NCBI GenBank assembly: GCA_000998135.1
Contig: LCCV01000011.1
Span: 4,132 to 68,131, forward strand
Origin: Parcubacteria group bacterium GW2011_GWA2_42_14
GTDB lineage: Bacteria; Patescibacteriota; Minisyncoccia; Sungbacterales; GWA2-42-14
Direction of reading: 5' to 3'
Length of the DNA: 64,000 nt
Shown: positions 12,565 to 41,811 of the stretch, piece by piece
How positions within the stretch are numbered: position 1 is the stretch's first letter
Layout of the letters: each line of letters begins with the position of its first letter
The notes under the pieces: generated by a model
Told to the model about the DNA's origin: nothing
The model's input: only the letters and a program-made list of their open reading frames with translations
Databases searched by the model: none
Position numbers and translations under genes: made by a program

Positions 12565-12975
12565 ATGCCCACCATTAATCAGTTGGTAAAAAGAGGCAGA
12601 ACTCCCAAAAGAGCAAAGTCAAAAACGCCGGCGCTTGAGCGCGGTTTTAACGTAAAGAAAAACAGACCGGTACCATATTCGTCGCCTTTTAAAAGAGGTG
12701 TTTGTATAAAGGTGACTACGGTTACTCCGAAAAAGCCGAATTCCGCCTTGAGAAAAGTTGCCAGAGTTCGTCTTACCAACGGCATGGAGGTTACGGCCTA
12801 TATTCCCGGCGAAGGGCATAATTTGCAGGAACACTCGGTGGTGATAATCCGCGGCGGAAGAGTTAAAGATTTGCCCGGAGTTAGATATCATATTGTAAGA
12901 GGAATTTTGGATATGACCGGAGTTGAGGGAAGGAAGCAGCAGCGTTCAAAATATGGCGCGAAAACCCCCAAATAG
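12565..12975 (+). CDS. rpsL: 30S ribosomal protein S12
   Basis: '[12 protein letters not shown]...'. Conserved S12. Confidence 0.9.
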
Positions 12976-13044
12976 CGACAAGCGACATGTAACATGTGAC
13001 ATGGAATTTGTGCCTTGTCTCATGTCACTTGTCTCATGTCTCTC
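12975..13044. repeat. Family A heptamer-arm palindrome ((AGACAAG)n / (CATGTCA)n), inverted orientation
   Basis: GACATGTAACATGTGACATGG...CTTGTCTCATGTCACTTGTCTCATGTCTC. Confidence 0.7.
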
Positions 13045-13048
13045 GGAG

Positions 13049-13516
13049 ATGAGACGAAAAAGAAAAGTAAAAAGAATAATTGCGCCAGACCTGAAGTATG
13101 GTAACCAGCTTGTGGCCAAGTTTATTAATTATGTAATGAGAAAGGGGAAAAAGAGTGCGGCCCAAAGGGTTGTTTATAAAACTTTTGATACTATGCAGCA
13201 AAAATATCAGGTGGAGCCGCTGGCCACTTTTGATTTGGCCATAAAGAACGCGTCCCCGGCCTTGGAGGTAAAAGCAAAAAGAATTGGAGGAGCGACTTAT
13301 CAGGTGCCGCGGGCAGTTCGGGGTGAGCGAAAAATGCAGTTGGCTTTTACCTGGATTTTGAACGCGGCCAGAGCAAAAAAAGGAAGGCCGATGCATGAAA
13401 AATTAGCCGAAGAATTAATGGCCGCCTCCAAAAACGAGGGGATAGCAGTTAAGAAAAAGATGGACACCCTTCGCATGGCTGAAGCAAATAAGGCGTTTGC
13501 TCATTTTGCGTGGTAA
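13049..13516 (+). CDS. rpsG: 30S ribosomal protein S7
   Basis: 'MRRKRKVKRIIAPDLKYGNQLVAKFINYVMRKGKK'. The ORF-track start at 12923 lies in a heptamer repeat; corrected to the in-frame ATG at 13049. Confidence 0.8.
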   Translation: MRRKRKVKRIIAPDLKYGNQLVAKFINYVMRKGKKSAAQRVVYKTFDTMQQKYQVEPLATFDLAIKNASPALEVKAKRIGGATYQVPRAVRGERKMQLAFTWILNAARAKKGRPMHEKLAEELMAASKNEGIAVKKKMDTLRMAEANKAFAHFAW

Positions 13517-13965
13517 TCACTTTATTTTTTATGAAAGAGGTATTTCACAAAAATTTTCATATTTTGGAAAGAGTTGAGCCGGGTGAGGGGAAGAGGAAGC
13601 GAATGTTTATAATGGCGACATGGAGGCCCAAACAGGATATTTGGCTCATTGGCACGGCCATCGGGCTTTTGTGCTGTAAGTCGGATAATTATGAAATTTA
13701 TCTTGCGGTTTCGAAAAATCCATCGCTTGAGCCAAGAAAATTTTTAGTCGGGCTCAAAAAAGATTGGTTATTTTATCAGCAACGTGATGTCTATACATAT
13801 TCTTCCGGCATTAACGATTTAGTAAGTTATCATTTTTTACCGGAGGGATATGGTTTTTTAATCAAAAAAGGAGAGCCGGTTTATATCAAAGTCGGCGCGG
13901 TGAATTTAACCATCAATCCGTTGGAATACGATGCATTTTGCAATCTTTATTATACTTTGGCGTAA
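13510..13965 (+). CDS. Hypothetical protein inserted between rpsG and fusA
   Basis: ORF only; unusual position. Confidence 0.3.
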   Translation: MVITLFFMKEVFHKNFHILERVEPGEGKRKRMFIMATWRPKQDIWLIGTAIGLLCCKSDNYEIYLAVSKNPSLEPRKFLVGLKKDWLFYQQRDVYTYSSGINDLVSYHFLPEGYGFLIKKGEPVYIKVGAVNLTINPLEYDAFCNLYYTLA

Positions 13966-14277
13966 TTTTAATTTATGGAAATAGGAAAAGAAAAATTTGA
14001 ACCCGAGAAACGGCTGTATAAAATTCCTGAAGAAATTCGGAAAGAGCTGGAAAGCATCCGCGAGGATAAATTTTGGACAGTTGAAAATCTTGAACGGCAG
14101 TTTGAAGATGACATTGCTTTTGGCGCAAAAATGTGGACTGGTTTTGATGCAATTCTGGAAAGGAAGAATTTGAGAAAAGAAAATGGAAGAATTTGAAAGA
14201 GGGTTGCAACAGCCGCCACAAGAAAAAATTGAATAATAATTTTTGATTTTTTGCGTCTTTAGTCGTATAATACAATT

Positions 14278-14502
14278 ATGCCGACCATTACCATAGAAAT
14301 TCCTAAAAAAGTTTTAGAAAACGGAACAGGACGTCGGCTTTTGGTTGTTGACCCAAAGCAATTTGAAAAAGATTTACGCAGGCAATGGGAGGAGGGGGAA
14401 GATGTTGAGGATACGAAACGTCTATTGAGTGTTGCGCAAGATAAAAAAAATCAAAAACGAATTCCGTATGCTAAAGTAAAAAAACAGTTTAATCTGCCAT
14501 GA
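14278..14502 (+). CDS. Putative type II antitoxin
   Basis: 74-aa ORF whose stop overlaps the toxin start (ATGA). Confidence 0.35.
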   Translation: MPTITIEIPKKVLENGTGRRLLVVDPKQFEKDLRRQWEEGEDVEDTKRLLSVAQDKKNQKRIPYAKVKKQFNLP

Positions 14503-14762
14503 CCCGGATTTTCTTCAGACCAAAAGCGCTTGCGGGACTTGGTGTAGCGCCGCGGAAATATCAATTAATCATTAACGAAGCAATACGAATTTTAGAACAA
14601 GGCTTATTTCCTCCTCATACCAAGAAGTTGGAAGATTCGATGGATGGTTACCGCACCCGCGTAGGCCGGTGGCGGATTTTATTTACTCTCAAGAGCGGTG
14701 AAATTGAAGTTGTGGATATTTTTCTTAAAAAAGGCAAAAGCGATTATAAACGCAGATATTAA
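14499..14762 (+). CDS. RelE/ParE-fold type II toxin
   Basis: 'GYRTRVGRWRILFTLKSGEIEVVDIFLKKGKSDY' RelE/ParE C-terminal signature. Confidence 0.5.
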   Translation: MTRIFFRPKALAGLGVAPRKYQLIINEAIRILEQGLFPPHTKKLEDSMDGYRTRVGRWRILFTLKSGEIEVVDIFLKKGKSDYKRRY

Positions 14763-17125: not shown

Positions 17126-17473
17126 TCAGTTGCACTGGATAGTTATTTCGGATTTGTCGGGGATAAATGTTTCATCTCCGAAAATAGGATTACGGTAGAC
17201 TTTCATTAGAATCTTTACACAATCTCCGACTTTCGCGGTCGAGATGAACGAGTTAGCCGATTTGTAACGAACCGTGAATGTTACATTTTTCACCTGTATT
17301 ATTTTGCCAACTTCGATTATATCGCCGGGTAGCATACTTCCGTCATCTTGCGGAGTTTGGGTTTCCTCTTGTGCAATACCAACTACTTTACCGATTTCCA
17401 TTCGTTCGTAATTAGTAGTGCATCCCATAGCGCCAAGTAGTGAAAGAACAATAATCAGGCCGCCGATTTTCAT
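17126..17473 (-). CDS. Small lipoprotein
   Basis: Signal peptide plus lipobox 'LLGAMGC'. Opposite strand within the ribosomal cluster. Confidence 0.45.
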   Translation of the reverse strand: MKIGGLIIVLSLLGAMGCTTNYERMEIGKVVGIAQEETQTPQDDGSMLPGDIIEVGKIIQVKNVTFTVRYKSANSFISTAKVGDCVKILMKVYRNPIFGDETFIPDKSEITIQCN

Positions 17474-17635
17474 TGTTATTTCTCCGTGTTTTTGTTTTTT
17501 GGCAGCATTTTAATATGTAGCATACCCCCAAAATCTTGTCAAGTGGTTTGGAAAATGGTATATTTGAAATATGTTTTTCACAAAGTGATAATTTTAAGAG
17601 GGCGACTAGAAATATAAAAGAAGCGATCGAACTTT

Positions 17636-17872
17636 ATGGCTGAAGATTTACCAATAATTTTCTCTCGGCATGCGTTGTTAAAACTTGAGCATAGAAATTT
17701 AACGAAAGAAATGGTGGTTGCAGTCATAACTAAGCCGTCATATCTTATTCTTGCTGGTGACAAGTTTCATGCTTATAGAAGATTGGGAAAGTTATATCTC
17801 AAAGTCATATTTGTAAGAACAACAAACGTTATTATTGTCCTTACGCAACACTTTGTTAAAAAAGTACCATGA
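17636..17872 (+). CDS. DUF4258-like toxin
   Basis: 'IIFSRHALLKLEHRNLTKEMVVAVI' resembles DUF4258. Stop overlaps the next ORF. Confidence 0.45.
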   Translation: MAEDLPIIFSRHALLKLEHRNLTKEMVVAVITKPSYLILAGDKFHAYRRLGKLYLKVIFVRTTNVIIVLTQHFVKKVP

Positions 17873-18111
17873 TTTATACATATGACCCGATGGCTGATGC
17901 CATCAATATAACATTTAAAAAGGGCAAGGTTGCGGAAACGAAAGAAATTGCCGATGGGGTGCTGCTTGATATTGATAAAAACGGAAGCCCGCTTTATTTA
18001 GAAATTCTTTTCGCGCGCAAACGTTTTGGAAAAGAGAAAGTCGGCAATTTGTCGTTAAAACCGTTTTTATATTCTTCAGCAAAAGTTAGAAACGGCATTG
18101 CGGTAAAATGA
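17869..18111 (+). CDS. DUF2283-like antitoxin
   Basis: 'YDPMADAINITF...DGVLLDIDKNGSPLYLEIL' resembles DUF2283. Confidence 0.45.
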   Translation: MIYTYDPMADAINITFKKGKVAETKEIADGVLLDIDKNGSPLYLEILFARKRFGKEKVGNLSLKPFLYSSAKVRNGIAVK

Positions 18112-18214
18112 GAAATTAAGCGCCAAGAAGTCGGCTTTCCCGAAGAAGGCGAGGAAGAAGATGATATTTAAATATTCGTAATTCGTCAAAATTCGTAATT
18201 AGTAGGATAATAAT

Positions 18215-18487
18215 ATGTTTAACGGATTTAAAATAAACAAAGGCGAAAAATTCATAATGGTGGAAAACGGCAAGCCCACTTATGTGGTGATGAGTTATGA
18301 TGATTATGAAAATATGCTGGCACGGCGCCCGTCTGAAAGCTCCGCTCACCATGGACGGCCTGAAGTTGGTTTGGCAAACGACAGAGTTGGACGGGCAGAA
18401 GAAGAATTCAGCGCCCGCCTGGTTATGGATACGCCGAATGTGCCGGAGGATATTAGCAAGATAAGATTAGAAGATCTTCCGCTCTGA
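18215..18487 (+). CDS. Phd/YefM-like antitoxin (orphan)
   Basis: 'KFIMVENGKPTYVVMSYDDYENM'. Confidence 0.35.
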   Translation: MFNGFKINKGEKFIMVENGKPTYVVMSYDDYENMLARRPSESSAHHGRPEVGLANDRVGRAEEEFSARLVMDTPNVPEDISKIRLEDLPL

Positions 18488-18723: not shown

Positions 18724-18825
18724 TTACCCCGTTAGAAGTCTGGCCCGTTTTTACGGGAAAAAGGGTTGAGATAACAGCCTTGATAAAACGGGGAAAGTCT
18801 CGAAGAAGGAAAACTTCTAACGGGG
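18724..18825. mobile_element. Family H miniature inverted-repeat element
   Basis: CCCCGTTAGAAGT...ACTTCTAACGGGG. Confidence 0.7.
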
Positions 18826-18850
18826 CGAGATCGGCGGGGAAAATAAAAAT

Positions 18851-20044
18851 ATGGCAGAGAAATTTGAGCGCACAAAACCCCACTTAAATGTTGGGACAAT
18901 AGGCCATGTTGACCATGGTAAAACCACTTTAACGGCGGCAATCACAAAGATTTTATCTTTGAAGGGATATAAGGCCCGTGTGGAATCGGTAGAGCAGATT
19001 GATAATGCGCCGGAAGAAAAGGCGCGAGGTATTACTATTGCTCTTCACCATTCCGAATATGAAACCGAAAAAAGGCACTATGCGCATATTGATGCTCCGG
19101 GACATGCCGATTATATCAAGAATATGATTACCGGTGCCGCGCAGATGGATGGCGCGATTTTGGTTGTTTCTGCCGTTGATGGTCCTATGCCTCAAACAAG
19201 AGAGCATATTTTGCTTGCGCGCCAAGTGGGGGTGCCGTCCATAATTGTATTTTTAAACAAGGTTGACGCGGTTGAAGATAAGGAATTGGTTGATTTGGTT
19301 GAGGTCGAAGTTCGCGAGCTTTTGAAAAAATATGAATTTCCCGGAGACAAAACTCCTATTATCCGGGGTTCAGCCTTAAAAGCGCTGGAAGCAACTTCGG
19401 CCGACGATGAAGCCGCCAAACCAATTTTGGAATTGGCCAATGCTCTTGATGAATATATTCCCGAGCCGGTCCGCGAGATTGATAAACCATTTTTGACGCC
19501 CGTAGAAGATGTTTTTTCTATAGAAGGCCGTGGAACTGTAGTTACCGGAAGAGTAGAAAGGGGAAAAGTAAAGGTTAATGATGAAGTTGAAGTTATAGGA
19601 TTAAAACCGACTCAAAAAACAATTGTTACCGGAATTGAAATGTTTAATAAATCGCTGGACGAAGGAATGGCCGGAGATAACGCGGGAATTTTGTTAAGAG
19701 GCCTTAAAAAAGAAGATGTGGAAAGGGGGCAGGTTATTGCTAAGCCAGGCTCCGTTACTCCTCATACCGAATTTGAAGTTGAAGCTTATATTCTGACCAA
19801 AGAGGAAGGGGGCAGGCACACGCCGTTTTTCACCGGGTATAAGCCGCAATTTTATTTGAGAACAACTGATGTTACCGGGGAGATGACCCTTCCGCAGGGA
19901 ATTGAGATGGTTATGCCTGGAGATACTGTTAAGGGTAGCGTTAAATTAATCGCGCCGGTTGCTCTTGAAGAAAAACAGAGATTTGCCATTAGAGAAGGGG
20001 GAAAAACGGTAGGGGCGGGAGTAGTTACGAAGATACTTAAATAA
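18851..20044 (+). CDS. tuf: Elongation factor Tu
   Basis: '[15 protein letters not shown]'. 397 aa. Confidence 0.95.
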
Positions 20045-20122
20045 CCAACAACCCACAACCAACAACTAACAACACGTTGGGCGCAAAGTTGTTGTAGGTT
20101 GTAAGTGGTTAGTTGTAAGTTA
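20044..20122. repeat. Family F (CAACAAC)n / (GTTGTTG)n palindrome
   Basis: Copies at 34237-34305, 46730-46775 (inside the recJ ORF) and 59860-59978. Confidence 0.65.
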
Positions 20123-20129
20123 CGCAGGA

Positions 20130-20767: not shown

Positions 20768-20995
20768 GTGGAGAAAGCAGAGTTTATGAATACCCTAACT
20801 ATTCCTCGAAAATTAGTACAAAATGACGATTTGGTGGTTGTGCCTCGCAGAGAATACGAGAGATTATTTCGATTTTGGGCCGCGGCTGAACTACTCACTG
20901 CAAGCCAGAAGAAAGCGATAAATAAGGGTGTCCGAGAAATAGCGCGGGGAAAATTTTTTACTTCAAAACAAGTAAAACATGAATTGGGACTATAG
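20768..20995 (+). CDS. Putative antitoxin
   Basis: 75 aa, overlaps the downstream RelE-like ORF. Confidence 0.35.
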   Translation: MEKAEFMNTLTIPRKLVQNDDLVVVPRREYERLFRFWAAAELLTASQKKAINKGVREIARGKFFTSKQVKHELGL

Positions 20996-21230: not shown

Positions 21231-21287
21231 AAATTGGCGTGAAATATTAAAACAAAAGGTTTGTATATAATTATTCTTCGAGCCCCG

Positions 21288-21399
21288 CCCCGTTAGAAAT
21301 TTAAATAAACGCAATTTTATTCCAAAAGATGTAAGGCGGGAGCCGCTTTGCTTCACATTGTTGTGTTGTGATTGGCGTATTGCCGGATTTCTAACGGGG
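21288..21399. mobile_element. Family H miniature inverted-repeat element
   Basis: CCCCGTTAGAAATTTAAAT...GGATTTCTAACGGGG. Confidence 0.7.
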
Positions 21400-26099: not shown

Positions 26100-26102
26100 G
26101 TA

Positions 26103-26176
26103 TTAGAAGCAGAACTACGCTGATGAGTACGCCGAACTACGCTGAAATCAGCGTCAATCAGCGTCAATCGGCTTCT
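26103..26176. repeat. Family D element (TAGAAGCAGAACTACGC...AATCAGCGTCAATCGGCTTCTA), 7-bp inverted ends
   Basis: Second copy at 30592-30678. Confidence 0.65.
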
Positions 26177-26181
26177 ATGGT

Positions 26182-26628: not shown

Positions 26629-26630
26629 AT

Positions 26631-26791
26631 GTGATGCTAATCAGGTGCGAATTTAATGCTAATCTACAAATTGCGAATATTTATTCTTAAAGTGAAATCG
26701 AGAAGTTACCATAATGTAAAATTCTCGACAGGTTCGAATAGTATTCGCAATTCGCCAGATTCGCATTTCATTTGTAGATTGGCATCATTGC
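26631..26791. repeat. Family C element, long copy
   Basis: GTGATGCTAATCAGGTGCGAATTTAATGCTAATCTACAAATTGCGAAT...GATTCGCATTTCATTTGTAGATTGGCATCATTGC. Confidence 0.65.
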
Positions 26792-26792
26792 T

Positions 26793-27617: not shown

Positions 27618-27690
27618 CGACAAGCGACAAGAGACATGAGACAAGGATTTAATTTCCATGTCGCATGTCACATGTAGCATGTCACATGTA
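27618..27690. repeat. Family A heptamer-arm palindrome
   Basis: GACAAGCGACAAGAGACATGAGACAAGG-loop-CATGTCGCATGTCACATGTAGCATGTCACATG. Confidence 0.7.
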
Positions 27691-28029: not shown

Positions 28030-28098
28030 CGACATGGGACAAGAGACATGGGACAAGGAACGTAAAACTTGTTACATGTTGCATGTCACATGTCACAT
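28028..28098. repeat. Family A heptamer-arm palindrome
   Basis: AGCGACATGGGACAAGAGACATGGGACAAGG...TTACATGTTGCATGTCACATGTCACATG. Confidence 0.7.
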
Positions 28099-28100
28099 GA

Positions 28101-28634: not shown

Positions 28635-28635
28635 C

Positions 28636-28800
28636 GACATGGGACAAGAGACATGAGACAAGGAAAGTAGAGACAAGGGACAAGTGACATAAAACATGGT
28701 TTTTATTAACAGCTTTACGGATAATCCGTATTAGCGGTAATCCATGTCGCATGTTGCATGTTATCAAAAACTTGTCACATGTTATATGTTACATGTCACA
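28636..28800. repeat. Family A heptamer-arm palindrome, long copy
   Basis: Same arms with a ~60-bp internal loop. Confidence 0.65.
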
Positions 28801-28803
28801 GTC

Positions 28804-29826: not shown

Positions 29827-29827
29827 G

Positions 29828-29919
29828 GCGACTCCAATACGCGAATGATATTCGAATGACTCTAATACGTGATTATTTATTCGAGTCATTCGAGTGAATT
29901 AGAGTAGTATTAGGGTCGC
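29828..29919. repeat. Family B palindromic element
   Basis: GGCGACTCCAATACGCGAATG...GAGTCATTCGAGTGAATTAGAGTA..TATTAGGGTCGC. Confidence 0.7.
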
Positions 29920-29926
29920 ATGAAAA

Positions 29927-30331: not shown

Positions 30332-30394
30332 TCGCCAATCAATCTCGAATTTATTTTCGAATTATCGCTAATCTGATTATTCGAGATAATTCTG
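30331..30394. repeat. Family E-related element
   Basis: ATCGCCAATCAATCTCGAATTTATTTTCGAATTATCGCTAATCTGATTATTCGAGATAATTC. Confidence 0.55.
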
Positions 30395-30415
30395 GAAGAC
30401 ATTAGTGAATGATTC

Positions 30416-30595: not shown

Positions 30596-30678
30596 AAGCA
30601 GAACTACGCGATAAGTACGCAGAAACATGCTGAAATCAGCGTTAATCAGCGTACTCAATCAGCGTCAATCGGCTTCTA
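30592..30678. repeat. Family D element
   Basis: GTAGAAGCAGAACTACGCGATAAGTACGCAGAAACATGCTGAAATCAGCGTTAATCAGCG...GGCTTCTA. Confidence 0.65.
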
Positions 30679-30682
30679 AAAC

Positions 30683-30958: not shown

Positions 30959-31033
30959 GCGGGTTAAGTGAATTAAGTTAATTAAGCTTAACCTGCTTAA
31001 CTCGCTTAATTCACTTAATAAGTTAAAGAAGTA

Positions 31034-31411: not shown

Positions 31412-31493
31412 ATAACCACGAATTAGTCTCGAATAATTCACGAATAACACAAATTCGTGAAATTCGTTAAATAATTTGTGCGTAATTAGTGGT
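31412..31493. repeat. Family M1 palindrome (ACCACGAATTAG...CGTAATTAGTGGT)
   Basis: Inverted repeat ends plus an internal GAATAATTCACGAAT / AATTCGTGAAATTCG palindrome. Confidence 0.55.
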
Positions 31494-31802: not shown

Positions 31803-31807
31803 AAAAG

Positions 31808-31880
31808 TAATCGCGAATCAATCATGAATCTATTCGCGAATATTCGCGAATAAAAAATTAGAGATTGATTAGAAAAAGTG
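31808..31880. repeat. Family E-related element
   Basis: AATCGCGAATCAATCATGAATCTATTCGCGAATATTCGCGAAT...AGAGATTGATTAG. Confidence 0.55.
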
Positions 31881-32411: not shown

Positions 32412-32413
32412 AA

Positions 32414-32482
32414 CTTATAACATGAAACATGAAACATGAAATCGAATAAATGATTCATGATTCATGGTTCATGGTTCATGAG
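32414..32482. repeat. Family G (AAACATG)n / (GTTCATG)n palindrome
   Basis: Second copy at 33143-33212, overlapping the rplF start. Confidence 0.65.
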
Positions 32483-32484
32483 AA

Positions 32485-32670: not shown

Positions 32671-32671
32671 T

Positions 32672-32745
32672 CGCGACAAGAGACAAGAGACAAGAGACAA
32701 GGAATTTATTTCCATGTCACATGTCACATGTCACATGTCACAAGG
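32672..32745. repeat. Family A heptamer-arm palindrome
   Basis: (GACAAGA)4...CATGTCACATGTCACATGTCACATGTCACAAG. Confidence 0.7.
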
Positions 32746-33132: not shown

Positions 33133-33142
33133 TTTATTTATC

Positions 33143-33212
33143 GTGAAACATGAAACATGGAACATAAAGCAAGGTTAACCATGATTCATGCTTCATGATT
33201 TATGATTCATGA
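33143..33212. repeat. Family G palindrome
   Basis: GAAACATGAAACATGGAACAT...CATGATTCATGCTTCATGATTTATGATTCATGAG. Confidence 0.65.
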
Positions 33213-33754: not shown

Positions 33755-33844
33755 GGCGACTCCAATATGCGAATGCCATTCGAATGACTCTAATAATACA
33801 AAATTTATTCGAGTCATTCGAGTGAATTAGAGTATTAGAGTCGC
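33755..33844. repeat. Family B palindromic element
   Basis: GGCGACTCCAATATGCGAATG...CGAGTCATTCGAGTGAATTAGAGTATTAGAGTCGC. Confidence 0.7.
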
Positions 33845-33850
33845 TATAAA

Positions 33851-34237: not shown

Positions 34238-34305
34238 TCAACAACTAATTACTAACAACTAACAACACGTGTTGTGGGTTGTGGGTTGTGGGTTGTAAGT
34301 TAATT
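34237..34305. repeat. Family F palindrome
   Basis: AACAACTAATTACTAACAACTAACAACACGTGTTGTGGGTTGTGGGTTGTGGGTTGTAAGTT. Confidence 0.65.
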
Positions 34306-34306
34306 A

Positions 34307-34756: not shown

Positions 34757-34823
34757 CGGCAAGAGACAAGGGACAAGAGACATGGATTTCCATGTCACAT
34801 GTCACATGTCACATGTCACATGT
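34757..34823. repeat. Family A heptamer-arm palindrome
   Basis: GCGGCAAGAGACAAGGGACAAGAGACATGG...(CATGTCA)4. Confidence 0.7.
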
Positions 34824-36558: not shown

Positions 36559-36648
36559 TCACAAATCAATCTCGAATTTTTTCGCGAATGCCTGTGGTGA
36601 GCTCGTCGAACCATTCGCGAAAAAAATTAGCGATTGTTTCGCGAATAG
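36558..36648. repeat. Family E element (AATCAATC..CGAAT...GCGAATGCCTGTGGTGAGCTCGTCGAACCATTCGCGAA...)
   Basis: The 38-bp core is identical at 42597-42645. Related copies at 30331-30394 and 31808-31880. Confidence 0.7.
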
Positions 36649-37323
36649 GTGATCTTGCCCAAAGTTGTAATCTTTTTCGGCCTTCCCGGTTCCGGCAAAG
36701 GAACCCAAGCCGACGTACTTGCCAAGCACTTCGGTTTTTTTCATTTTGACACCGGCAAAGAAATTGAGAAAACGGTTCATAATCCGGCAAAACGCAAAGA
36801 CCCGGTTATTAAGCGCGAGGCTAAGTTTTTTGATACCGGGTTTTTAAATACTCCTTCCTGGGTTGAAGATATAGTAAAGAAAAGGACCGAAGAATATGCT
36901 GAAGCCGGCCGGAACCTTGTTTTTTCCGGCTCTCCCAGAACCCTGCCCGAGGCCAAAGGGCTTTTCAAGGTTTTTAAAAAACTTTTCGGGCTCAAAAACG
37001 TTTTAATAATCTTTCTTGATATAGATGAGGAAACTTCAATATTTAGAAACAGCCATAGGAGGGTTTGTCACGATTGTCGTATTCCCGTAATCTGGTCTAA
37101 AGAAACCAAAGATTTGACTCATTGCCCTTATTGCGGCGGAAAATTGGTTAAGCGCATCTTGGACAACCCCCAAATTATAAAAGAACGCATCAAGGAATAT
37201 CGTAAAAAATCCGAGCCATCAATGAAGTTTTTGAAAAGCAAAGGAATAAAAATGATTTGCATAGACGGAGAAAAATATCCGGAGGTGGTATCTAAAGACA
37301 TCGCGTCACATTTTAACAAATAA
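36649..37323 (+). CDS. adk: Adenylate kinase (Zn-LID type)
   Basis: 'GLPGSGKGTQA'. LID 'RRVCHDCRIP...CPYCGGKLVKR'. Confidence 0.85.
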   Translation: MILPKVVIFFGLPGSGKGTQADVLAKHFGFFHFDTGKEIEKTVHNPAKRKDPVIKREAKFFDTGFLNTPSWVEDIVKKRTEEYAEAGRNLVFSGSPRTLPEAKGLFKVFKKLFGLKNVLIIFLDIDEETSIFRNSHRRVCHDCRIPVIWSKETKDLTHCPYCGGKLVKRILDNPQIIKERIKEYRKKSEPSMKFLKSKGIKMICIDGEKYPEVVSKDIASHFNK

Positions 37324-37488
37324 ATTAACCTAATTATTCTAATTAACCATGATGAAAATTCACCTAATTCCTAATTACCTAATTCACCTAATAAAATTTC
37401 TAATGTACTAATACTTAATTTAAAATTTTGGAATTTGATTATTTTATTAGAAATTAGGTGAATTAGACAATTAGAAATTATTAAGTAC
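37324..37488. repeat. Family M2 long palindrome of (CACCTAATT)/(AATTAGGTG) units between adk and the adk paralog
   Basis: TTAACCTAATTATTCTAATTAACC...CACCTAATTCCTAATTACCTAATTCACCTAAT...ATTAGAAATTAGGTGAATTAGACAATTAGAAATT. Confidence 0.55.
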
Positions 37489-37494
37489 TTTTTC

Positions 37495-38082
37495 TTGATT
37501 AAACCGAAATTTAAAAATAAAGAATACGTTTTGCTTTTAATTGGCCCTTCTGGTTCCGGAAAAGGTACGCAGGCCGATTTTTTGAAAAAACGGATTCCGC
37601 GCCTGAAAATTATTAGAACCGGACCGATGCTAAAAAAACTTGCCAGGCGTAATACAATAACAGCCGAATTTGTTCTGCCTTATTTAAAAAATGGGTTGCT
37701 TGTTCCGGGGTGGCTTGCCTCGTTCACCTGGATGAAGGTGGTTTTTGAAAGTGTGTTATCCGGAGAAAACTTGCTTTTTGACGGAGCGCCGCGCCAAGTC
37801 AGCGAGGCCCGGCTTCTGGATGAAGTGATGAATTGGCACAAAAAGCCGCTGCCAAGAGCGATATTTTTGGATATAGACCGCAAAGAGTCGCAAAGACGGC
37901 TTTTGTTAAGAGGCCGTTCCGATGATACTAATGAGGCAATTAAGGAACGCCTTAAATTTTATTATAAAAATGTAATTCCAGTAATCAGTTATTTTAAAAA
38001 AAATAAAAGATTAATCAGGGTTAATGGCGAACAGGAGCCGGAGAAAGTGGCGGAAGATATTAGAAAAGCTTTACATATTTAA
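37495..38082 (+). CDS. Adenylate kinase paralog (short LID)
   Basis: 'GPSGSGKGTQA'. Tandem to adk. Confidence 0.7.
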   Translation: MIKPKFKNKEYVLLLIGPSGSGKGTQADFLKKRIPRLKIIRTGPMLKKLARRNTITAEFVLPYLKNGLLVPGWLASFTWMKVVFESVLSGENLLFDGAPRQVSEARLLDEVMNWHKKPLPRAIFLDIDRKESQRRLLLRGRSDDTNEAIKERLKFYYKNVIPVISYFKKNKRLIRVNGEQEPEKVAEDIRKALHI

Positions 38083-38210
38083 AAATTCAAAATCCAAAGC
38101 ATCAAATCCCAAATAAATTCAAATTCCAAAATTCAAATTAAGTTTTGCCTTTTGGATATTTGGGTTTTGATATTATTTGGGATTTGGGATTTTGAAATTG
38201 GAATTTTTCG
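38083..38210. repeat. Family L (TCCCAAA)n / (TTTGGGA)n palindrome
   Basis: AAATCCAAAGCATCAAATCCCAAATAAATTC...TTTGGGTTTTGATATTATTTGGGATTTGGGATTTTG. The same heptamer (ATCCCAA)x4 occurs in-frame inside map at 38538-38568. Confidence 0.65.
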
Positions 38211-39062
38211 ATGATTGTTAAAACTCAAGATGAAATAGATACTCTTCGCGAATGCGGGCATCGTCTTGCAAAAATACTTGATAAGGTTGTAAAAGCGGTT
38301 AAGCCCGGAGTAAGCGCTAAAGATTTGGATAGGCTCGCCGAGAGCCTGATTTTGTCGCAAGGAGGAGAGCCGGTATTTAAGGGATATAAAATTAAAGAAG
38401 AAAAAAGAGCTTATCCGGCAAGTTTATGCGTATCAATAAATGATGAGATTGTGCATGGTATTCCCTTGGAAAAGAAGATTATTAAAGAGGGTGATATTGT
38501 GGGGTTGGATATAGGAATGAAGTGGCCTTCGGCTAAAATCCCAAATCCCAAATCCCAAATCCCAAACGACCTTTTTCGTCATTCTGAGGCAGAAGGCCGA
38601 AGAATCTCCGAGGGGCTTATTACCGATATGGCCGTAACCGTAGGCGTAGGAAAAATTTCCCAAGAAGCGGAAAAATTGTTGCGTTCAACGAAAGAATCAT
38701 TGGGCATAGGAATTTCAATTTTAAGGCCGGGAGTAAAACTCGGCGATTTGGGTTTTATAATCCGGAAACATTTAGAGAAAAATAACCTTTCAATTATTCG
38801 GGATTTATGCGGTCACGGCGTAGGAAAAGAGCTTCACGAAGAGCCGATGGTTTTGAATTATGGCAAAAAAGGAACCGGTCTTGAACTTCGCGAAGGAATG
38901 GTTATTGCCATTGAACCAATGGCAAGTTTGGGCGATTGGAAAATTAAAGTTGACTCCGACGGCTGGACAATTCGCACGGCCGATAAGTCGCTTGCCGCCC
39001 ATTTTGAGCACACGGTGGTAATAATTAAAAATGGCGCAGAAGTGTTGACAAAGATAAAATAA
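38211..39062 (+). CDS. map: Methionine aminopeptidase type I (with an in-frame repeat-derived insertion at ~38530-38616)
   Basis: MetAP fold motifs 'GDIVGLDIG', 'HGVGKELHEEP' and 'AHFEHTVVI'. Confidence 0.9.
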   Translation: MIVKTQDEIDTLRECGHRLAKILDKVVKAVKPGVSAKDLDRLAESLILSQGGEPVFKGYKIKEEKRAYPASLCVSINDEIVHGIPLEKKIIKEGDIVGLDIGMKWPSAKIPNPKSQIPNDLFRHSEAEGRRISEGLITDMAVTVGVGKISQEAEKLLRSTKESLGIGISILRPGVKLGDLGFIIRKHLEKNNLSIIRDLCGHGVGKELHEEPMVLNYGKKGTGLELREGMVIAIEPMASLGDWKIKVDSDGWTIRTADKSLAAHFEHTVVIIKNGAEVLTKIK

Positions 39063-39463: not shown

Positions 39464-39522
39464 ATAGTTTGGCTCCTGGCGGGGCTTTTTTCTTTTTTTG
39501 AAATATGTGCGACAATAAATGT

Positions 39523-39909
39523 ATGCGTTATTTAGGCATTGATTACGGTCATAAAAGAATCGGAATTGCTATTTCTGATGAAGGGGGCGTTATGGCTTTT
39601 CCTTTTAGCCGGATTTTGGCGAAAAGCCCGGCTTTTATTGTTAAAGAAATTAAGAAAATAATAAAAAAGAAAAGAATAGAAAAGATTGTCCTTGGCTTGC
39701 CGATTACTTTCGGCGGCCAGGATTCATTGCAGACAAACGCAGTTAAGGAATTTGGCCGATATCTTGGTAAAATGTTACAATTACCGATAGAGTATGAAAA
39801 CGAGATTTTGAGCACAAAGATGGCGGAACGCGGCGGCACCGTCAAACAAAAAATCGATTCATCAGCCGCCGCCATTATTTTGCAGTCATATTTGGATAGA
39901 AACAAGTGA
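39523..39909 (+). CDS. ruvX: Holliday-junction resolvase-like RuvX/YqgF
   Basis: 'MRYLGIDYGHKRIGIAISDEGG'. Confidence 0.7.
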   Translation: MRYLGIDYGHKRIGIAISDEGGVMAFPFSRILAKSPAFIVKEIKKIIKKKRIEKIVLGLPITFGGQDSLQTNAVKEFGRYLGKMLQLPIEYENEILSTKMAERGGTVKQKIDSSAAAIILQSYLDRNK

Positions 39910-39973
39910 CAAGAAACATGAGACAAGGATGCGTTCCATGTCCATGTCCATGTCCATGTCACATGTCACATGA
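39900..39973. repeat. Family A heptamer-arm palindrome (variant with a (CATGTC)n hexamer run)
   Basis: AACAAGTGACAAGAAACATGAGACAAGG...CCATGTCCATGTCCATGTCCATGTCACATGTCACATG. Confidence 0.7.
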
Positions 39974-40705
39974 GTGTATTTAAGCTGGATTATTCCTTCC
40001 TATAACGAAGAACGCAGAATTGAAAAAACTCTTCATGAAGTTGACGCTTATTTGCGTTCTAAAAATTTTTCTGAAGGATATGAAATTATTGTTGCCAATT
40101 CCGCGTCCCGCGATAAAACTGCTGAAATAGTAGAAGGACTTATAATAGAAATTCCGCGCCTCCGCCTTTTAAATTTGGAAAACAAGGGTAAGGGTTGGGC
40201 GGTTAAAAAAGGTATGCTTGATGCCAAAGGCGATATCCGGTTGTTTTCCGATGCCGATAATTCAACCGCGCCGAATTATTTTGACGCCATGCTTCCCTTT
40301 TTTGAAAAAGGATATGACATTGTAATAAGTTCGCGTAACTCCAAAGACGTAGTCGGAGCTTCGCGCGATATCAAAGAACCGTGGTATAGAGAAATTATGG
40401 GGCGTATGGGAAATATGGTGATACAAATATTCGGAGTTTGGGGCATTCAAGATACGCAAAACGGTTTTAAGGCCATGACCGCCAAAGCCGCTAAGGATAT
40501 TTTTTCAAGGGCTTTAATGTACGACTTTTCTTTTGATATTGAGATGCTGGCTTTGGCAAAAAAAATGGGATACAAAATCGCGATTATTCCTATTCAATGG
40601 AAATTTGATCCGGATAGCAAGGTTACTTTAAAGGATTATATTCAAGTATTTCTTGATGTATTCAGGATTAGGTGGAATTTTATCACGAACAAATATGAGT
40701 TGTAG
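39974..40705 (+). CDS. Family-2 glycosyltransferase (Dpm1-like)
   Basis: 'SWIIPSYNEERRIEKTL'. 'FSDADNS' DxD-like. Confidence 0.7.
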   Translation: MYLSWIIPSYNEERRIEKTLHEVDAYLRSKNFSEGYEIIVANSASRDKTAEIVEGLIIEIPRLRLLNLENKGKGWAVKKGMLDAKGDIRLFSDADNSTAPNYFDAMLPFFEKGYDIVISSRNSKDVVGASRDIKEPWYREIMGRMGNMVIQIFGVWGIQDTQNGFKAMTAKAAKDIFSRALMYDFSFDIEMLALAKKMGYKIAIIPIQWKFDPDSKVTLKDYIQVFLDVFRIRWNFITNKYEL

Positions 40706-40776
40706 AGATATGAGACAAGGGACATGATACAAGGAATGTAAAACTTGTCGCATGTTGCATGTCACATGTCACATGA
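40706..40776. repeat. Family A heptamer-arm palindrome
   Basis: GAGATATGAGACAAGGGACATGATACAAGG...CATGTTGCATGTCACATGTCACATG. Confidence 0.7.
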
Positions 40777-41811
40777 GTGAAGAATATATCCGAATTAAGA
40801 CAAGACATCGTTTTCGGCGATTGGGTTGTTATTGCCACGGGCAGGGGCAGGCGTCCTCACGATTTTGCCAAAAAAGACGGAGACCATTGGTGGAAACGAC
40901 AGAAAAAGAATTGTCCATTTGACGAACTTATTGATTCGGCTTTTTATGTTGCTTTGAAAAGCGGAGAGGTTCATAAGCTTTCTAAAAAAAATAAAACAGT
41001 TCTTGAAAAGAATTGGTTTTTACAAATTATTCCCAATAAATATCCGGCTTTTGGAAAGGGGATTTGCGCCGTGCAAAGAAAAATCGGACCTTATTTTTGG
41101 GAAGACGGCGTGGGTTTTCATGATGTTATTATTACCCGGGCTCATGAAAAATCCGTTGCTTTAATGAGTCAAAAAGAAGCTGATATTTTGATACGGGCTT
41201 ATCGCGATAGATATTTGCAGTTAAAGGATGAAGATTGTGTTGAATACGTTTCTATTTTTCATAATCACGGGCCGGAAGCAGGAGCAAGCATTGCCCATCC
41301 GCATTCGCAAGTTATCGCTATCTCGGTGGTTCCGCCGGATGTGGGAAGAAGTATTAAGGGTTCGGCGGTTTTTTATCATAAAAATAAAAAATGCGTGCAT
41401 TGCGTAATGATTGATTTTGAAAAGCGCGAAAAAATCAGGATTATTTATGAAAATGAAAAATTTGTGGTTTTCGCGCCCTTTGCTTCCCGCACTGCTTTTG
41501 AAGTTAGGGTTTTCCCCAAAAAACATTCTCCGAATTTTGAGTCCATTCATAACAGCGAAATTACTTTTTTGGCAGACGCTTTAAAAATGGCGCTGGCTAA
41601 ATTATGCAAGGGTTTGGGCAATCCTTCTTATAATTTTTTCATCCATACTTCTCCGGCGGCCAATATTGAGGCCTTAAGGCATTATCATTGGCATATAGAA
41701 ATTTTGCCTAAAACCGCGATTTGGGCCGGATTTGAACTGGGAACTGGTATTGATATTTCAAGCATAGCGCCGGAAAAAGCAGCATCCTTTTTGCGAAAAA
41801 TCAAAAATTAA
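40777..41811 (+). CDS. galT: Galactose-1-phosphate uridylyltransferase-like (HIT superfamily)
   Basis: 'FHNHGPEAGASIAHPHSQV'. Confidence 0.65.
   Translation: MKNISELRQDIVFGDWVVIATGRGRRPHDFAKKDGDHWWKRQKKNCPFDELIDSAFYVALKSGEVHKLSKKNKTVLEKNWFLQIIPNKYPAFGKGICAVQRKIGPYFWEDGVGFHDVIITRAHEKSVALMSQKEADILIRAYRDRYLQLKDEDCVEYVSIFHNHGPEAGASIAHPHSQVIAISVVPPDVGRSIKGSAVFYHKNKKCVHCVMIDFEKREKIRIIYENEKFVVFAPFASRTAFEVRVFPKKHSPNFESIHNSEITFLADALKMALAKLCKGLGNPSYNFFIHTSPAANIEALRHYHWHIEILPKTAIWAGFELGTGIDISSIAPEKAASFLRKIKN

What the first reader, a model, noticed from the sequence alone, without database searches (positions are those of the whole stretch)
12975..40785. Every spacer of the ribosomal super-operon is occupied by a hairpin built from complementary tandem heptamers, and the CATGTCA arm supplies ATG in all three frames just upstream of the downstream gene
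Seen in sequence: the spacers after rpsL, rplB, rpsS, rplV, rpsZ, rpsE and ruvX, and the spacer after the GT2 gene (ahead of galT), each contain (AGACAAG)n or (GGACAAG)n, then an 8-15 nt loop, then (CATGTCA)n.

Arm pairing, as I paired it by hand for one copy, is imperfect with regular A-A mismatches, about 14 of 20 positions paired.

Other spacers carry analogous structures from different heptamers:
- (CAACAAC)/(GTTGTTG)
- (AAACATG)/(GTTCATG)
- (TCCCAAA)/(TTTGGGA)
- (CACCTAATT)/(AATTAGGTG)

Other spacers carry longer palindromic elements of families B to E.

I count at least 13 families, most with 2-8 copies inside this 64-kb window alone.

Because 7 is not a multiple of 3, each (CATGTCA)n run places ATG codons in all three reading frames 5-40 nt ahead of the true start. 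This explains the ORF track's spurious '[11 protein letters not shown]...' N-termini. It could also mean the repeats act as translation-initiation or RNA-processing landmarks, for example RNase III-type operon processing sites, rather than as plain terminators.

Inference: this is a genome-wide system of family-diverse intercistronic hairpins. I am not aware of such elements described as tandem-heptamer hairpins.
Basis: partly seen in the sequence, partly recalled or inferred. Interest (0 to 1): 0.7.

Follow-up and report, generated by a model that had tools for sequence, protein, structure and literature searches.

The report
Fast-turnover palindromic repeats between ribosomal genes
In this tiny-genome groundwater bacterium (a Sungbacteria of the Candidate Phyla Radiation), nearly every gap between co-transcribed ribosomal-protein genes is filled by a short hairpin-forming repeat, often built from 7-base tandem units; these repeats are missing from a sister lineage and differ between near-identical strains, so they behave like miniature mobile DNA rather than conserved regulatory signals.

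Summary
In rplD..tpiA, 24 of 28 co-directional junctions hold one palindrome that starts 0-4 nt after the stop codon and ends 2-14 nt before the next start. Folding z-scores run from about -3 to -9. About half have period-7 arms; the rest are longer palindromes. There are roughly 12 families.

Comparative data decide the interpretation:
- A syntenic sister Sungbacteria (SecY 83% identical) has 1-18 nt empty spacers at the same junctions.
- A strain with 97% identical SecY has hairpins at the same junctions but from other families.
- One haplotype inside the 99.8%-identical population swaps family at two junctions.
- Whole elements, loops included, recur at unrelated junctions at 87-96% identity.
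- Arms co-vary (CACGAAT/ATTCGTG versus CACGGAT/ATCCGTG).
- Similar heptamer hairpins occur patchily in other Patescibacteria.

They are not terminators, match no Rfam family, and show no sense-strand G-U bias.

Best reading: a lineage-specific bloom of REPIN/MITE-like palindromic micro-elements with slippage-made heptamer arms, colonising stop-start junctions of a compact genome that does not use Shine-Dalgarno sites. Effects on mRNA, such as hairpin-gated coupling, are plausible but unproven.

Unexplained: genes behind these hairpins often start with GTG where the orthologues have ATG.

The parts
12976..13048 (+). F1 (GACAWG/CWTGTC heptamer) hairpin, rpsL>rpsG
   Evidence: MFE -25.7, z -3.6
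20045..20129 (+). F2 (CAACAAC/GTTGTNG heptamer) hairpin, tuf>rpsJ
   Evidence: 88% identical over 41 nt to the L232 rpsE>rplO element
26100..26181 (+). F6 (GAAGCAGAACTACGC...AATCAGCGTC decamer...GGCTTC) hairpin, rplD>rplW
   Evidence: z -3.1
26629..26792 (+). 164-nt long palindrome, rplW>rplB. The junction is 8 nt in sister L235/L236
   Evidence: (MFE -57, z -7.4)
27618..27690 (+). F1 hairpin, rplB>rpsS, followed by a GTG start at 27691. In haplotype L241/L242 it is replaced by an F4 palindrome with an ATG start
   Evidence: (z -6.0)
28030..28100 (+). F1 hairpin, rpsS>rplV. 90% identical over 63 nt to the GT2>galT copy. The junction is 12 nt in L235/L236
   Evidence: (z -6.5)
28635..28803 (+). 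Composite F1 hairpin with nested material in the loop, rplV>rpsC; GTG start at 28804
   Evidence: (z -5.5)
29827..29926 (+). F4 (GCGACTCCAATA...TATTAGRGTCGC, about 95 nt) palindrome, DUF3850>rplP
   Evidence: (z -5.5)
30332..30415 (+). F5-like (AATCAATCTCGAAT...) palindrome, rplP>rpmC. The junction is 3 nt in L235/L236
   Evidence: z -2.2
30596..30682 (+). F6 hairpin, rpmC>rpsQ. The junction is 6 nt in L235/L236
   Evidence: MFE -28.9, z -5.2
30959..31033 (+). F7 (GGTTAAGTG/AATTAAGT nonamer) hairpin, rpsQ>rplN
   Evidence: (z -5.1)
31412..31493 (+). F8 (CAC-NN-AT / AT-NN-GTG) hairpin, rplN>rplX. Relatives sit at other junctions in L008, L009 and L232
   Evidence: (z -4.6)
31803..31877 (+). F5-like (TCGCGAAT) palindrome, rplX>rplE; GTG start
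   Evidence: (z -3.6)
32412..32484 (+). F3 (AACATGA/TCATGRT heptamer) hairpin, rplE>rpsZ. The junction is 10 nt in L236
   Evidence: (z -5.2)
32671..32745 (+). F1 hairpin, (GACAAGA)4/(CATGTCA)4 with A.A mismatches, rpsZ>rpsH; GTG start at 32746
   Evidence: (z -5.8)
33133..33208 (+). F3 hairpin, rpsH>rplF. The junction is 4 nt in L235/L236 and holds other families in L232, L234 and L007
   Evidence: (z -4.8)
33755..33850 (+). F4 palindrome, rplF>rplR
   Evidence: (MFE -42.4, z -9.3)
34238..34306 (+). F2 hairpin, rplR>rpsE; GTG start
   Evidence: (z -3.5)
34757..34823 (+). F1 hairpin, rpsE>rplO; GTG start at 34824. The junction is 3 nt in L235/L236, 1 nt in L234, and holds an F2 hairpin in L232
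   Evidence: (z -4.1)
36559..36648 (+). F5 palindrome (TCGCGAAT arms, core GCCTGTGGTGAGCTCGTCGAACC), secY>adk; GTG start
   Evidence: (96% over 56 nt to the VTT>tpiA copy)
37324..37494 (+). F9 (CCTAATT/AATTAGG) hairpin, adk>adk2
   Evidence: z -4.3
38083..38210 (+). F10 (AAATYCMAAA/TTTGGGATTT) hairpin, adk2>map
   Evidence: z -5.8
39910..39973 (+). F1 hairpin (short 5' arm, CATGTCC/CATGTCA 3' arm), ruvX>GT2; the TGA stop overlaps the first unit; GTG start
   Evidence: z -3.5
40706..40776 (+). F1 hairpin, GT2>galT; GTG start. The junction is 1 nt in L236
   Evidence: (z -5.4)
41812..41912 (+). F4 palindrome, galT>VTT. The junction is 10 nt in L235/L236
   Evidence: (z -7.4)
42573..42662 (+). 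F5 palindrome, VTT>tpiA. The junction is 18 nt in L235/L236. A further copy lies between comEC and a lactamase_B gene upstream of the window (L247:3078-3173)
   Evidence: z -4.6
59858..59990 (+). F2 hairpin with a nested insert in its loop, after gene 58514-59857
   Evidence: z -3.3

Best explanation
These are a lineage-specific bloom of small, non-autonomous, hairpin-forming dispersed repeats. They behave like REPINs or MITEs. Many have arms made of tandem heptamers, the unit length at which replication slippage most readily builds long simple repeats.

They have colonised the few-nucleotide stop-to-start junctions of co-transcribed genes in a compact Sungbacteria genome that does not use Shine-Dalgarno sites. 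Those junctions are essentially the only permissive sites.

Shown:
- Each element is a DNA-symmetric palindrome that fills a junction.
- Whole elements, loops included, recur at unrelated junctions.
- They are absent from orthologous junctions of a syntenic sister lineage.
- The family at a junction differs between near-identical strains.
- Arms co-vary so that self-complementarity is kept.
- They nest inside one another.
- They are stable, with no copy-number variation, within one clonal population.

Inferred:
- Heptamer arms arise by slippage.
- Copies spread by a hairpin-dependent single-strand DNA or template-switching mechanism whose enzyme was not seen.
- Once inserted, the element is transcribed within the polycistronic mRNA and folds into a hairpin that brings the stop and the next start to the base of one helix. 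This probably makes downstream initiation depend on unwinding by the terminating ribosome, and it may stabilise or expose the mRNA to RNase III.
- These are consequences of insertion, not the reason the elements exist.
For: Organism and reality.
- The window matches Candidatus Sungbacteria bacterium RIFCSPLOWO2_12_FULL_41_11 / GCA_001820775.1.
- The hairpin sequences are identical in more than 10 independent assemblies.

Palindromes.
- z is -3 to -9.
- They begin 0-4 nt after the stop in 23 of 26 and end 2-14 nt before the start.
- Both strands fold equally well. The sense strand is more stable in 15 and the antisense in 11; G-U pairs number 53 versus 46.

Empty sites.
- L235 (GCA_001820685.1) and L236 have SecY 83% identical and synteny from rplC to tpiA.
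- In L235, 20 of 28 junctions are 31 nt or shorter, 14 of them 1-18 nt at sites filled in the window.
- Only 1 of their 8 longer spacers is structured.

Turnover.
- L232 (SecY 97% identical) has hairpins in 6 of 9 junctions, all of other families than in the window. It also fills rplO>secY, which is empty in the window.
- L234 (87%) has 3 of 11 filled.
- Haplotype L241/L242 is 99.8% identical elsewhere but carries F4 instead of F1 at rplB>rpsS and rpsS>rplV.

Dispersal.
- Copies share 87-96% identity over 56-90 nt between unrelated junctions.
- The same family sits at different junctions in different strains.
- One copy lies in a competence operon.

Other points.
- Compensatory A-U to G-C changes occur in family F8, as reported for REPINs (PMC3116915).
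- Nesting is seen at 28635-28803 and 59858-59990.
- Tandem-armed hairpins after stop codons occur in 18 other fetched loci (17 from the genome scan plus L007), with period 7 in 22 of 31 such hairpins including the window's. Among the 17, two carry Bdellovibrionales titles and most are labelled Patescibacteria or other CPR groups. None occurs in the Thiobacillus or Burkholderiales loci.
- Heptamers are the commonest long simple repeat and are attributed to polymerase slippage (Mrazek 2007, as summarised in PMC4679880).
- They are not terminators and match no Rfam family.
- There is no SD-like motif upstream of any of the 26 hairpin-preceded genes, and only 2 of 35 other genes have one.
Against: - No transposase was found. 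Pfam scans of 20 window ORFs found no Y1/RAYT domain, but only about 69 kb of the genome was seen.
- No target-site duplication and no sharply defined element ends were visible.
- Occupancy of the operon is near saturation.
- A-rich 5' arms occur in 22 of 26 hairpins.
- SNP density in hairpin spacers is very low: 3 in 1913 nt against 62 in 10,492 nt of CDS.
- Starts switch from ATG to GTG behind the hairpins.

The last four points could reflect selection on an RNA-level role. Orientation relative to transcription cannot be separated from orientation relative to replication, because all host genes here are on one strand.
Confidence: 0.6

Rival explanations
1. Selected intercistronic RNA structures. 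The lineage needs a hairpin at each junction, to enforce translational coupling or reinitiation without SD sites, or to protect or segment the polycistronic mRNA. Only the structure is under selection, so the sequence families are free to change.
For: - Structure is kept while sequence is replaced at the same junction.
- There are compensatory changes.
- 24 of 28 junctions are occupied.
- The helix base abuts both the stop and the start.
- There are no SD motifs.
- There are 9 GTG starts where the orthologues have ATG.
- A mini-ORF stop abuts the start at rplV, GT2 and galT.
- SNP density in spacers is low.
Against: - The sister lineage with the same SD-less operon has 1-18 nt spacers and no hairpins.
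- L234 has mixed filled and empty junctions.
- There is no sense-strand G-U preference.
- F1 stems carry regular A.A mismatches.
- Identical elements also sit outside operon junctions and nest inside each other.
Confidence: 0.2
2. Purely local origin. Each hairpin arose in place by slippage plus fold-back or template-switch synthesis, with no movement between sites. Similar units recur by convergence.
For: - Arms are tandem repeats with variable unit variants.
- Ends are ragged.
- There is no target-site duplication and no transposase.
- Slippage favours heptamers (PMC4679880).
Against: - Whole elements, including non-repetitive loops and flanks, are 87-96% identical at unrelated junctions. 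Examples are rpsS>rplV versus GT2>galT, secY>adk versus VTT>tpiA versus L247, and the F4 triplet.
- The same family occurs at different junctions in different strains.
Confidence: 0.08
3. Arrays of binding sites for a single-strand nucleic-acid-binding protein, one OB-fold or Csp-type monomer or S1 domain per heptamer. This protein would open or close the hairpin and tune initiation, as proposed for TAACTGA repeats.
For: - Period 7 predominates.
- Repeats end at the start codon and SD motifs are absent. This matches the situation described in PMC4679880, which notes that CspB binds one protein per heptamer.
Against: - There are at least 12 unrelated unit sequences in one genome.
- Half of the elements lack tandem structure.
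- The elements are absent from the sister lineage.
- No binding protein was identified.
Confidence: 0.07
4. Intrinsic terminators or attenuators between genes.
For: They are stem-loops located after stop codons.
Against: - No T-run follows them, because the next start codon does.
- None is called by the terminator scan.
- Canonical GC-rich/T-run terminators are present at operon ends, at 39471-39486 and 43466-43495.
Confidence: 0.02

Closest known systems
REPINs / REP-BIME elements (RAYT-associated), e.g. Pseudomonas fluorescens, E. coli (PMC3116915)
   Same: - Short (60-170 nt), extragenic and multi-copy.
- Inverted halves fold into a hairpin in ssDNA or mRNA.
- Compensatory changes keep the stem.
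- They nest and cluster.
- They sit after genes within operons.
- Several families occur per genome.
   Different: - Arms here are tandem heptamers (or 9-11-mers) rather than a conserved REP core.
- Ends are ragged.
- There are many more families per kb.
- No RAYT was seen in the 69 kb examined.
- The host is a CPR bacterium.
- The elements abut both the stop and the start codon.
Intergenic tandem heptamer repeats: TAACTGA repeats of Beggiatoaceae/Cyanobacteria/Bacteroidetes (PMC4679880), Nostoc heptamer repeats near start codons (bioRxiv 10.1101/2022.06.06.494920), cyanobacterial STRR (own knowledge: Mazel et al. 1990; STRR lengthening helix P12 of RNase P RNA, Vioque 1997)
   Same: - 7-nt tandem units, intergenic, ending within a few nt of start codons.
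- Found inside r-protein operons.
- RBS motifs are rare.
- Close relatives have shorter spacers without the repeats.
- Function is unknown, and slippage or a mobile origin has been discussed.
   Different: - Those are mostly one-armed direct repeats of one or a few heptamers.
- Here each array is paired with a complementary array to form a hairpin.
- Many unit sequences coexist.
- Non-tandem palindromes share the same niche.
MITE-type palindromes transcribed into mRNA (Neisseria Correia elements, ERIC, RUP) - own knowledge
   Same: - Dispersed, non-autonomous and co-transcribed with neighbouring genes.
- They fold into long hairpins that can be RNase III substrates or mRNA stabilisers.
   Different: - MITEs have defined terminal inverted repeats, target-site duplications and a parent IS.
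- None of these was found here.
Mycobacterial interspersed repetitive units (MIRU) - own knowledge (Supply et al. 1997)
   Same: - They occupy intercistronic junctions of operons and are oriented with transcription.
- Their ends overlap stop and start codons, suggesting translational coupling.
   Different: - MIRUs are 40-100 bp direct tandem units carrying small ORFs.
- They are not hairpins of complementary heptamers.

Membership tests
REPIN / REP | Two inverted repeat halves predicted to form a hairpin; extragenic; many copies per genome | tested here: met
   Folding z is -3 to -9. There are 27 copies in 64 kb, all intergenic.
REPIN / REP | A cognate RAYT (Y1 transposase) gene flanked by the same repeat | tested here: inconclusive
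   Pfam scans of 20 unassigned or flanking ORFs found no Y1_Tnp domain. Only about 69 kb of the genome was available.
REPIN / REP | A highly conserved REP core sequence shared by all members of a family | tested here: inconclusive
   Within families, copies are 87-96% identical. However, arms are variable mixtures of unit variants (GACAAG/GACATG), and F8 keeps only CAC..AT / AT..GTG invariant.
MITE | Defined terminal inverted repeats with a target-site duplication, and a related autonomous IS | tested here: not met
   Comparison of filled and empty junctions shows no duplication and ragged ends. No IS was seen. Caveat: the empty sites come from a lineage about 17% diverged in SecY.
Tandem heptamer repeats (long simple sequence repeats, STRR, TAACTGA type) | At least 3 head-to-tail copies of a 7-nt unit in intergenic DNA, often ending next to a start codon | tested here: met
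   TRF and period scans. Period 7 occurs in about 13 of 26 hairpins. 3' arms end 2-14 nt before the start.
Tandem heptamer repeats (long simple sequence repeats, STRR, TAACTGA type) | Copy-number instability between closely related strains (slippage) | tested here: not met
   There is no indel in any heptamer array among 10 contigs of the population.
Intrinsic terminator | GC-rich stem followed by a U-run | tested here: not met
   None of the spacers is called, while true terminators are found at operon ends.
Known structured RNA family (r-protein leaders etc.) | Match to an Rfam covariance model at gathering score | tested here: not met
   Only tRNA-Pro is found in the window.
RNase III processing site | About 20 bp or more of mostly uninterrupted dsRNA; cleavage in vivo | not testable with these tools
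   Predicted stems have 20-59 pairs. F1 stems are interrupted by A.A mismatches every 7 nt. Cleavage needs experiment.

The most novel reading that the evidence does not exclude
The elements are a new class of junction-targeting mobile hairpins, and their insertion rewires translation. The hairpin places the upstream stop and the downstream start at the base of one helix in an organism without SD sites. This converts independent initiation into termination-dependent reinitiation, a bacterial analogue of ribosome shunting. That would explain why start codons behind them relax from ATG to GTG, and why in three cases a 5-codon arm mini-ORF ends in a TGA that directly abuts the start.
Probability: 0.12. 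Interest if true: 0.8.

Novelty: new variant of a known kind. Interest (0 to 1): 0.55.

Why it matters
CPR/Patescibacteria genomes are regarded as streamlined. Yet here about 2.3 kb of a roughly 16.5-kb essential operon is young, fast-turning-over palindromic DNA, and similar heptamer hairpins appear patchily across the group.

If they are mobile, they are an undescribed micro-element type in a huge uncultured clade. They are also a practical marker of strain identity and a cause of assembly breaks and mis-called gene starts. The MSHVTC... N-termini are already in public annotations, for example the 134-aa S8 (P0001).

If they gate translation, they would show how SD-less bacteria couple cistrons.

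Tried and rejected
- **Raw MFE metric.** Comparing raw MFE after stop codons with a coding-window percentile did not discriminate: A/U-rich mismatched stems overlap the coding tail. I replaced it with shuffle z-scores.
- **Genome scan with the S8 alignment.** I used those loci only as a broad survey and as controls.
- **Metagenome scan for CATGTYRCATGTYRCATG.** Only a few hairpins turned up: L139, L145, L171, L220. The viral scan found 21 one-armed arrays and no hairpin partners.
- **G-U versus A-C strand test for RNA-level selection.** Inconclusive.
- **Target-site duplication search.** Comparing filled and empty junctions found none.
- **In-frame arm ATG as the true start.** Rejected for GT2, galT, rplV, adk, rpsE and rplE because of in-frame stops.
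- **CsrA-like ACARGGA resemblance at the F1 apex.** Considered and dropped. The GGA lies in the stem and occurs in one family only.
- **Extending the window rightward.** The look-up failed.
- **Elhai et al. 2008 on Nostoc small dispersed repeats.** The paper could not be retrieved.
- **Terminator reading.** Rejected.

Full report
**What the window is.** The EF-Tu encoded at 18851-20044 is found, residue for residue, on NCBI contig MHQY01000015.1 of GCA_001820775.1 and on several metagenome contigs. The S8 cluster is named Candidatus Sungbacteria bacterium RIFCSPLOWO2_12_FULL_41_11. This is a Parcubacteria/Patescibacteria (CPR) genome with about 41% GC. Precomputed Pfam on identical contigs confirms the ribosomal proteins.

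**The observation.**
- Tandem Repeats Finder and my own period scan find paired period-7 runs in the named spacers. The raw sequence shows them directly.
- The 3'-arm pattern CATGTYRCATGTYRCATG occurs 13 times against 0.00 expected.
- Between rplD and tpiA there are 28 co-directional junctions, and 24 contain one palindrome that essentially fills the spacer.
- Against dinucleotide-preserving shuffles, 19 junctions have z from -3.1 to -9.3. The remaining elements give z from -2.2 to -5.2 with mononucleotide shuffles. Shuffling two complementary low-complexity arms keeps much of the pairing, so these z-scores are conservative.
- The helix base starts 0-4 nt after the stop codon in 23 of 26 hairpins and ends 2-14 nt before the next start.
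- About 13 of 26 have clear period-7 arms. The others have period 9-11 or are long non-tandem palindromes of 95-164 nt.
- By BLAST clustering and by eye I count about 12 families in the window, half of them single-copy here.
'Every spacer' and 'built from heptamers' are overstatements.
- The sequences are identical in more than 10 independent assemblies from NCBI, JGI and ENA, so they are not assembly artefacts.

**What they are not.**
- None is followed by a T-run, and a consensus terminator scan calls none of them. It does call GC-rich/T-run terminators at operon ends, at 39471-39486 and 43466-43495. Others are visible after 7563, 12278 and 62089.
- Rfam at gathering threshold finds only tRNA-Pro.

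**The decisive comparative evidence.** I fetched orthologous operons through S8 and SecY homologues and compared junction by junction.
- *Empty sites.* L235 (GCA_001820685.1) and L236 are another Sungbacteria, with SecY 83% identical and full synteny from rplC to tpiA. They have 1-18 nt spacers where the window has hairpins: rplW>rplB 8 nt, rpsS>rplV 12, rplV>rpsC 9, rplP>rpmC 3, rpmC>rpsQ 6, rplN>rplX 10, rplE>rpsZ 10, rpsH>rplF 4, rpsE>rplO 3, GT2>galT 1, galT>VTT 10, VTT>tpiA 18. Of 28 junctions in L235, only one longer spacer is significantly structured. The hairpins are therefore insertions in the window's lineage and are not needed for the operon to work.
- *Turnover between strains.* L232 (SecY 97% identical) has hairpins with z below -3 in 6 of 9 junctions, each from a different family than in the window. 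At rpsE>rplO the window has GACAAG/CATGTC and L232 has CAACAAC/GTTGTAA. At rpsH>rplF the window has AACATGA and L232 has CACGGAT. rplO>secY is empty in the window and filled in L232. L234 (87%) has 3 of 11 filled, with rpsE>rplO only 1 nt. L007 (S8 80%) and L008/L009 (89-91%) show the same pattern.
- *Variation inside one population.* Among ten contigs that are 99.7-100% identical to the window, haplotype L241/L242 carries the long GCGACTCC palindrome instead of family F1 at both rplB>rpsS and rpsS>rplV. Its rpsS is 96% identical and has a different C-terminal tail.
- *Stability within the population.* The hairpin spacers otherwise carry 3 SNPs in 1913 nt against 62 in 10,492 nt of CDS. No heptamer array differs in copy number. 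They are not hypervariable microsatellites on this timescale.

**Dispersal and pairing.**
- Whole elements, with loops and flanks, recur at unrelated junctions: rpsS>rplV versus GT2>galT, 90% over 63 nt; secY>adk versus VTT>tpiA, 96% over 56 nt; the three F4 copies, 87-89% over 80-90 nt.
- A further F5 copy lies between comEC and a lactamase_B gene just upstream of the window.
- The same family sits at different junctions in different strains. The window's rplN>rplX element is 97% identical over 38 nt to the L008 rpsZ>rpsH element. The window's tuf>rpsJ element is 88% identical to the L232 rpsE>rplO element.
- In family F8 the units keep CAC..AT / AT..GTG invariant, while the middle dinucleotide changes together in both arms (CACGAAT/ATTCGTG, CACGGAT/ATCCGTG, CACAGAT/ATCTGTG). 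This gives A-U to G-C compensations at several pairs.
- Elements also nest: the loop of 28635-28803 and the loop of 59858-59990 hold other material.
- These are the behaviours described for REPINs: hairpin-forming inverted doublets, compensatory changes, nested clusters (PMC3116915).

**RNA or DNA?**
- The palindromes fold about equally well on either strand. The sense strand is more stable in 15 and the antisense in 11. G-U pairs number 53 versus 46. So there is no signature of selection on the sense transcript alone.
- There are strand asymmetries. 1x1 mismatches are mostly A.A (28, against 4 T.T), largely from F1. The 5' arm is A-richer than T in 22 of 26 hairpins.
- Copies within a family are not independent. 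All host genes here lie on one strand, so transcription and replication cannot be separated.

**Breadth.**
These served as a survey.
- I folded the 90 nt after every stop codon against shuffles and then asked for tandem arms.
- This found hairpins with tandem-repeat arms in 18 other fetched loci: 17 from the genome scan plus L007. Among the 17, two carry Bdellovibrionales titles and most are labelled Patescibacteria or other CPR groups. Examples are a Staskawiczbacteria with four AGAAAAT/ATTTTCT copies, a Moraniibacteriota, and several 'Patescibacteria group' MAGs. Each has its own unit.
- The period is 7 in 22 of 31 hairpins, the window's included.
- None was found in the Thiobacillus or Burkholderiales loci from the same scan. 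Many Patescibacteria loci have none.
- The phenomenon is thus patchy but recurrent in the group.
- I found no paper describing it in CPR.

**Why heptamers?** MacGregor 2015 (PMC4679880) describes TAACTGA direct repeats ending about 1 nt upstream of start codons, including inside r-protein operons, in genomes where RBS motifs are rare at those sites. That paper summarises Mrazek et al. 2007: heptanucleotides are the most abundant long simple repeat in most prokaryotes, attributed to polymerase slippage. It also notes that CspB binds one protein per heptamer. I take slippage as the default origin of the arms (inference). The Csp/S1 idea remains a minor rival.

**Translation context.**
- An SD-like 4-mer at -18..-4 is present upstream of 0 of 26 hairpin-preceded genes and 2 of 35 others, against 12% of random 15-mers. 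This organism does not rely on SD pairing.
All eight F1 spacers and both F3 spacers carry ATG in all three frames. At rpsS, rpsC, rpsH and rplO an in-frame arm ATG runs into the gene. This is why public annotation gives a 134-aa S8 beginning MSHVTR.
- At rplV, GT2 and galT the in-frame ATG opens a 5-codon ORF (MSHVT) closed by a TGA that directly abuts the start. At adk, rpsE and rplE an in-frame stop lies 0-3 codons upstream. Arm ATGs are therefore not a general start supply.
- Only 2 of about 12 families contain ATG at all.

**An unexplained association.**
- Alignment of N-termini to L236 shows that the codon orthologous to Met1 is GTG in the window for rpsS, rpsC, rpsH, rplO, GT2, galT and adk. 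For rplE and rpsE the start is also GTG, with a slightly shifted N-terminus. That makes 9 of 26 hairpin-preceded genes, against 0 of 26 in L236.
- Six of the eight F1 hairpins are followed by GTG.
- In the L241 haplotype, where F4 replaces F1, rpsS starts with ATG.
- F1 is also preceded by TAG in 6 of 8 cases where the orthologues mostly have TAA.
- I cannot tell whether this reflects the insertion mechanism, relaxed start-codon stringency under coupling, or selection to weaken independent initiation.

**Verdict.** The most economical account (about 0.6) is a lineage-specific bloom of REPIN/MITE-like palindromic micro-elements with slippage-built arms. They sit in the only permissive sites of a compact genome. 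mRNA-level consequences are likely but secondary.

The main rival (about 0.2) is that a hairpin at each junction is itself selected, for coupling or stability, with sequence free to change. The empty sister operon and the mixed L234 operon argue against necessity. High occupancy, orientation bias, spacer conservation and the GTG starts keep this rival alive.

Missing pieces are the mobilising enzyme and a whole-genome census.

I rate it a new variant of a known kind, of moderate to high interest.

Noticed in passing
window 27691, 28804, 31878, 32746, 34307, 34824, 36649, 39974, 40777: Nine genes behind hairpins start with GTG where the sister lineage L236 has ATG at the aligned codon. Six of the eight F1 hairpins are followed by GTG and six are preceded by TAG. 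In the L241 haplotype, which carries a different palindrome, rpsS starts with ATG.
   Followed up: partly
window 38536-38610 (inside map, 38211-39062): Methionine aminopeptidase carries an in-frame insertion relative to L236. It is encoded by (AAATCCC)4 followed by a copy of the dispersed GTCATTCTGAG...GAAGAATC repeat, and gives ...AKIPNPKSQIPNDLFRHSEAEGRRISE... The insertion is 18 aa. This is repeat DNA inserted in-frame in an essential gene, reminiscent of Rickettsia palindromic elements.
   Followed up: partly
window 4835-4943, 18727-18825, 21288-21399, 62216-62327 (short copy 63434-63469); L247:4780-4900: This is another family of 100-110-nt long palindromes (CCCCGTTAGA...TCTAACGGGG). They lie in non-operonic intergenic regions, one about 25 nt upstream of tuf.
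   Followed up: no
window 24722-25085: A 94-aa GIY-YIG nuclease gene (24767-25051) is flanked by inverted copies of GTCATTGCGAG...GAAGCAATC and sits between rplC and rplD. It looks like a small mobile cassette. Related GTCATTCTG motifs occur at 12354, 20660 and 38578.
   Followed up: partly
window 13510-14762, 17126-18487, 20768-23321, 29566-29826: The str/S10/spc cluster is interrupted by small accessory genes: ParE-like toxin, Phd/YefM-like antitoxin, DUF2283, DUF4258, DUF3850/ASCH, and several ORFs with no Pfam match. The sister lineage lacks most of them.
   Followed up: partly
whole window: Shine-Dalgarno-like 4-mers at -18..-4 occur upstream of only 2 of 61 genes, below the 12% seen in random 15-mers. 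The organism appears to initiate without SD pairing.
   Followed up: partly
L241-L246 contig ends versus window 26794, 27692, 28100: Contigs from other assemblies often begin or end at hairpin junctions, with SNP clusters just inside the adjacent gene. The repeats and the alternative haplotypes appear to break assemblies.
   Followed up: no
window 46731-46762: This is a one-armed tandem array (CAACTAA/CAACTTA, 4.6 copies) with no complementary partner. It lies in the 5' part of ORF 46628-48367, whose function I did not assign and whose start is therefore doubtful.
   Followed up: no
A2 alignment (window 31412-31493 and L008, L009, L232 copies): In family F8 the units keep CAC..AT / AT..GTG invariant while the middle dinucleotide varies in concert in both arms. 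This looks like a recognition motif rather than a free stem.
   Followed up: partly
L232:4170-4316; L041 near 3974 and 4828: A shared structured element, AGGGCTTTGT...AAAACCTTTACC, lies downstream of r-protein genes in two distant Patescibacteria loci. It may be another repeat or RNA family.
   Followed up: no
window 36649-37323 and 37495-38082: Two adenylate-kinase-family genes lie in tandem after secY. L234 has the same pair. L235/L236 have one.
   Followed up: no
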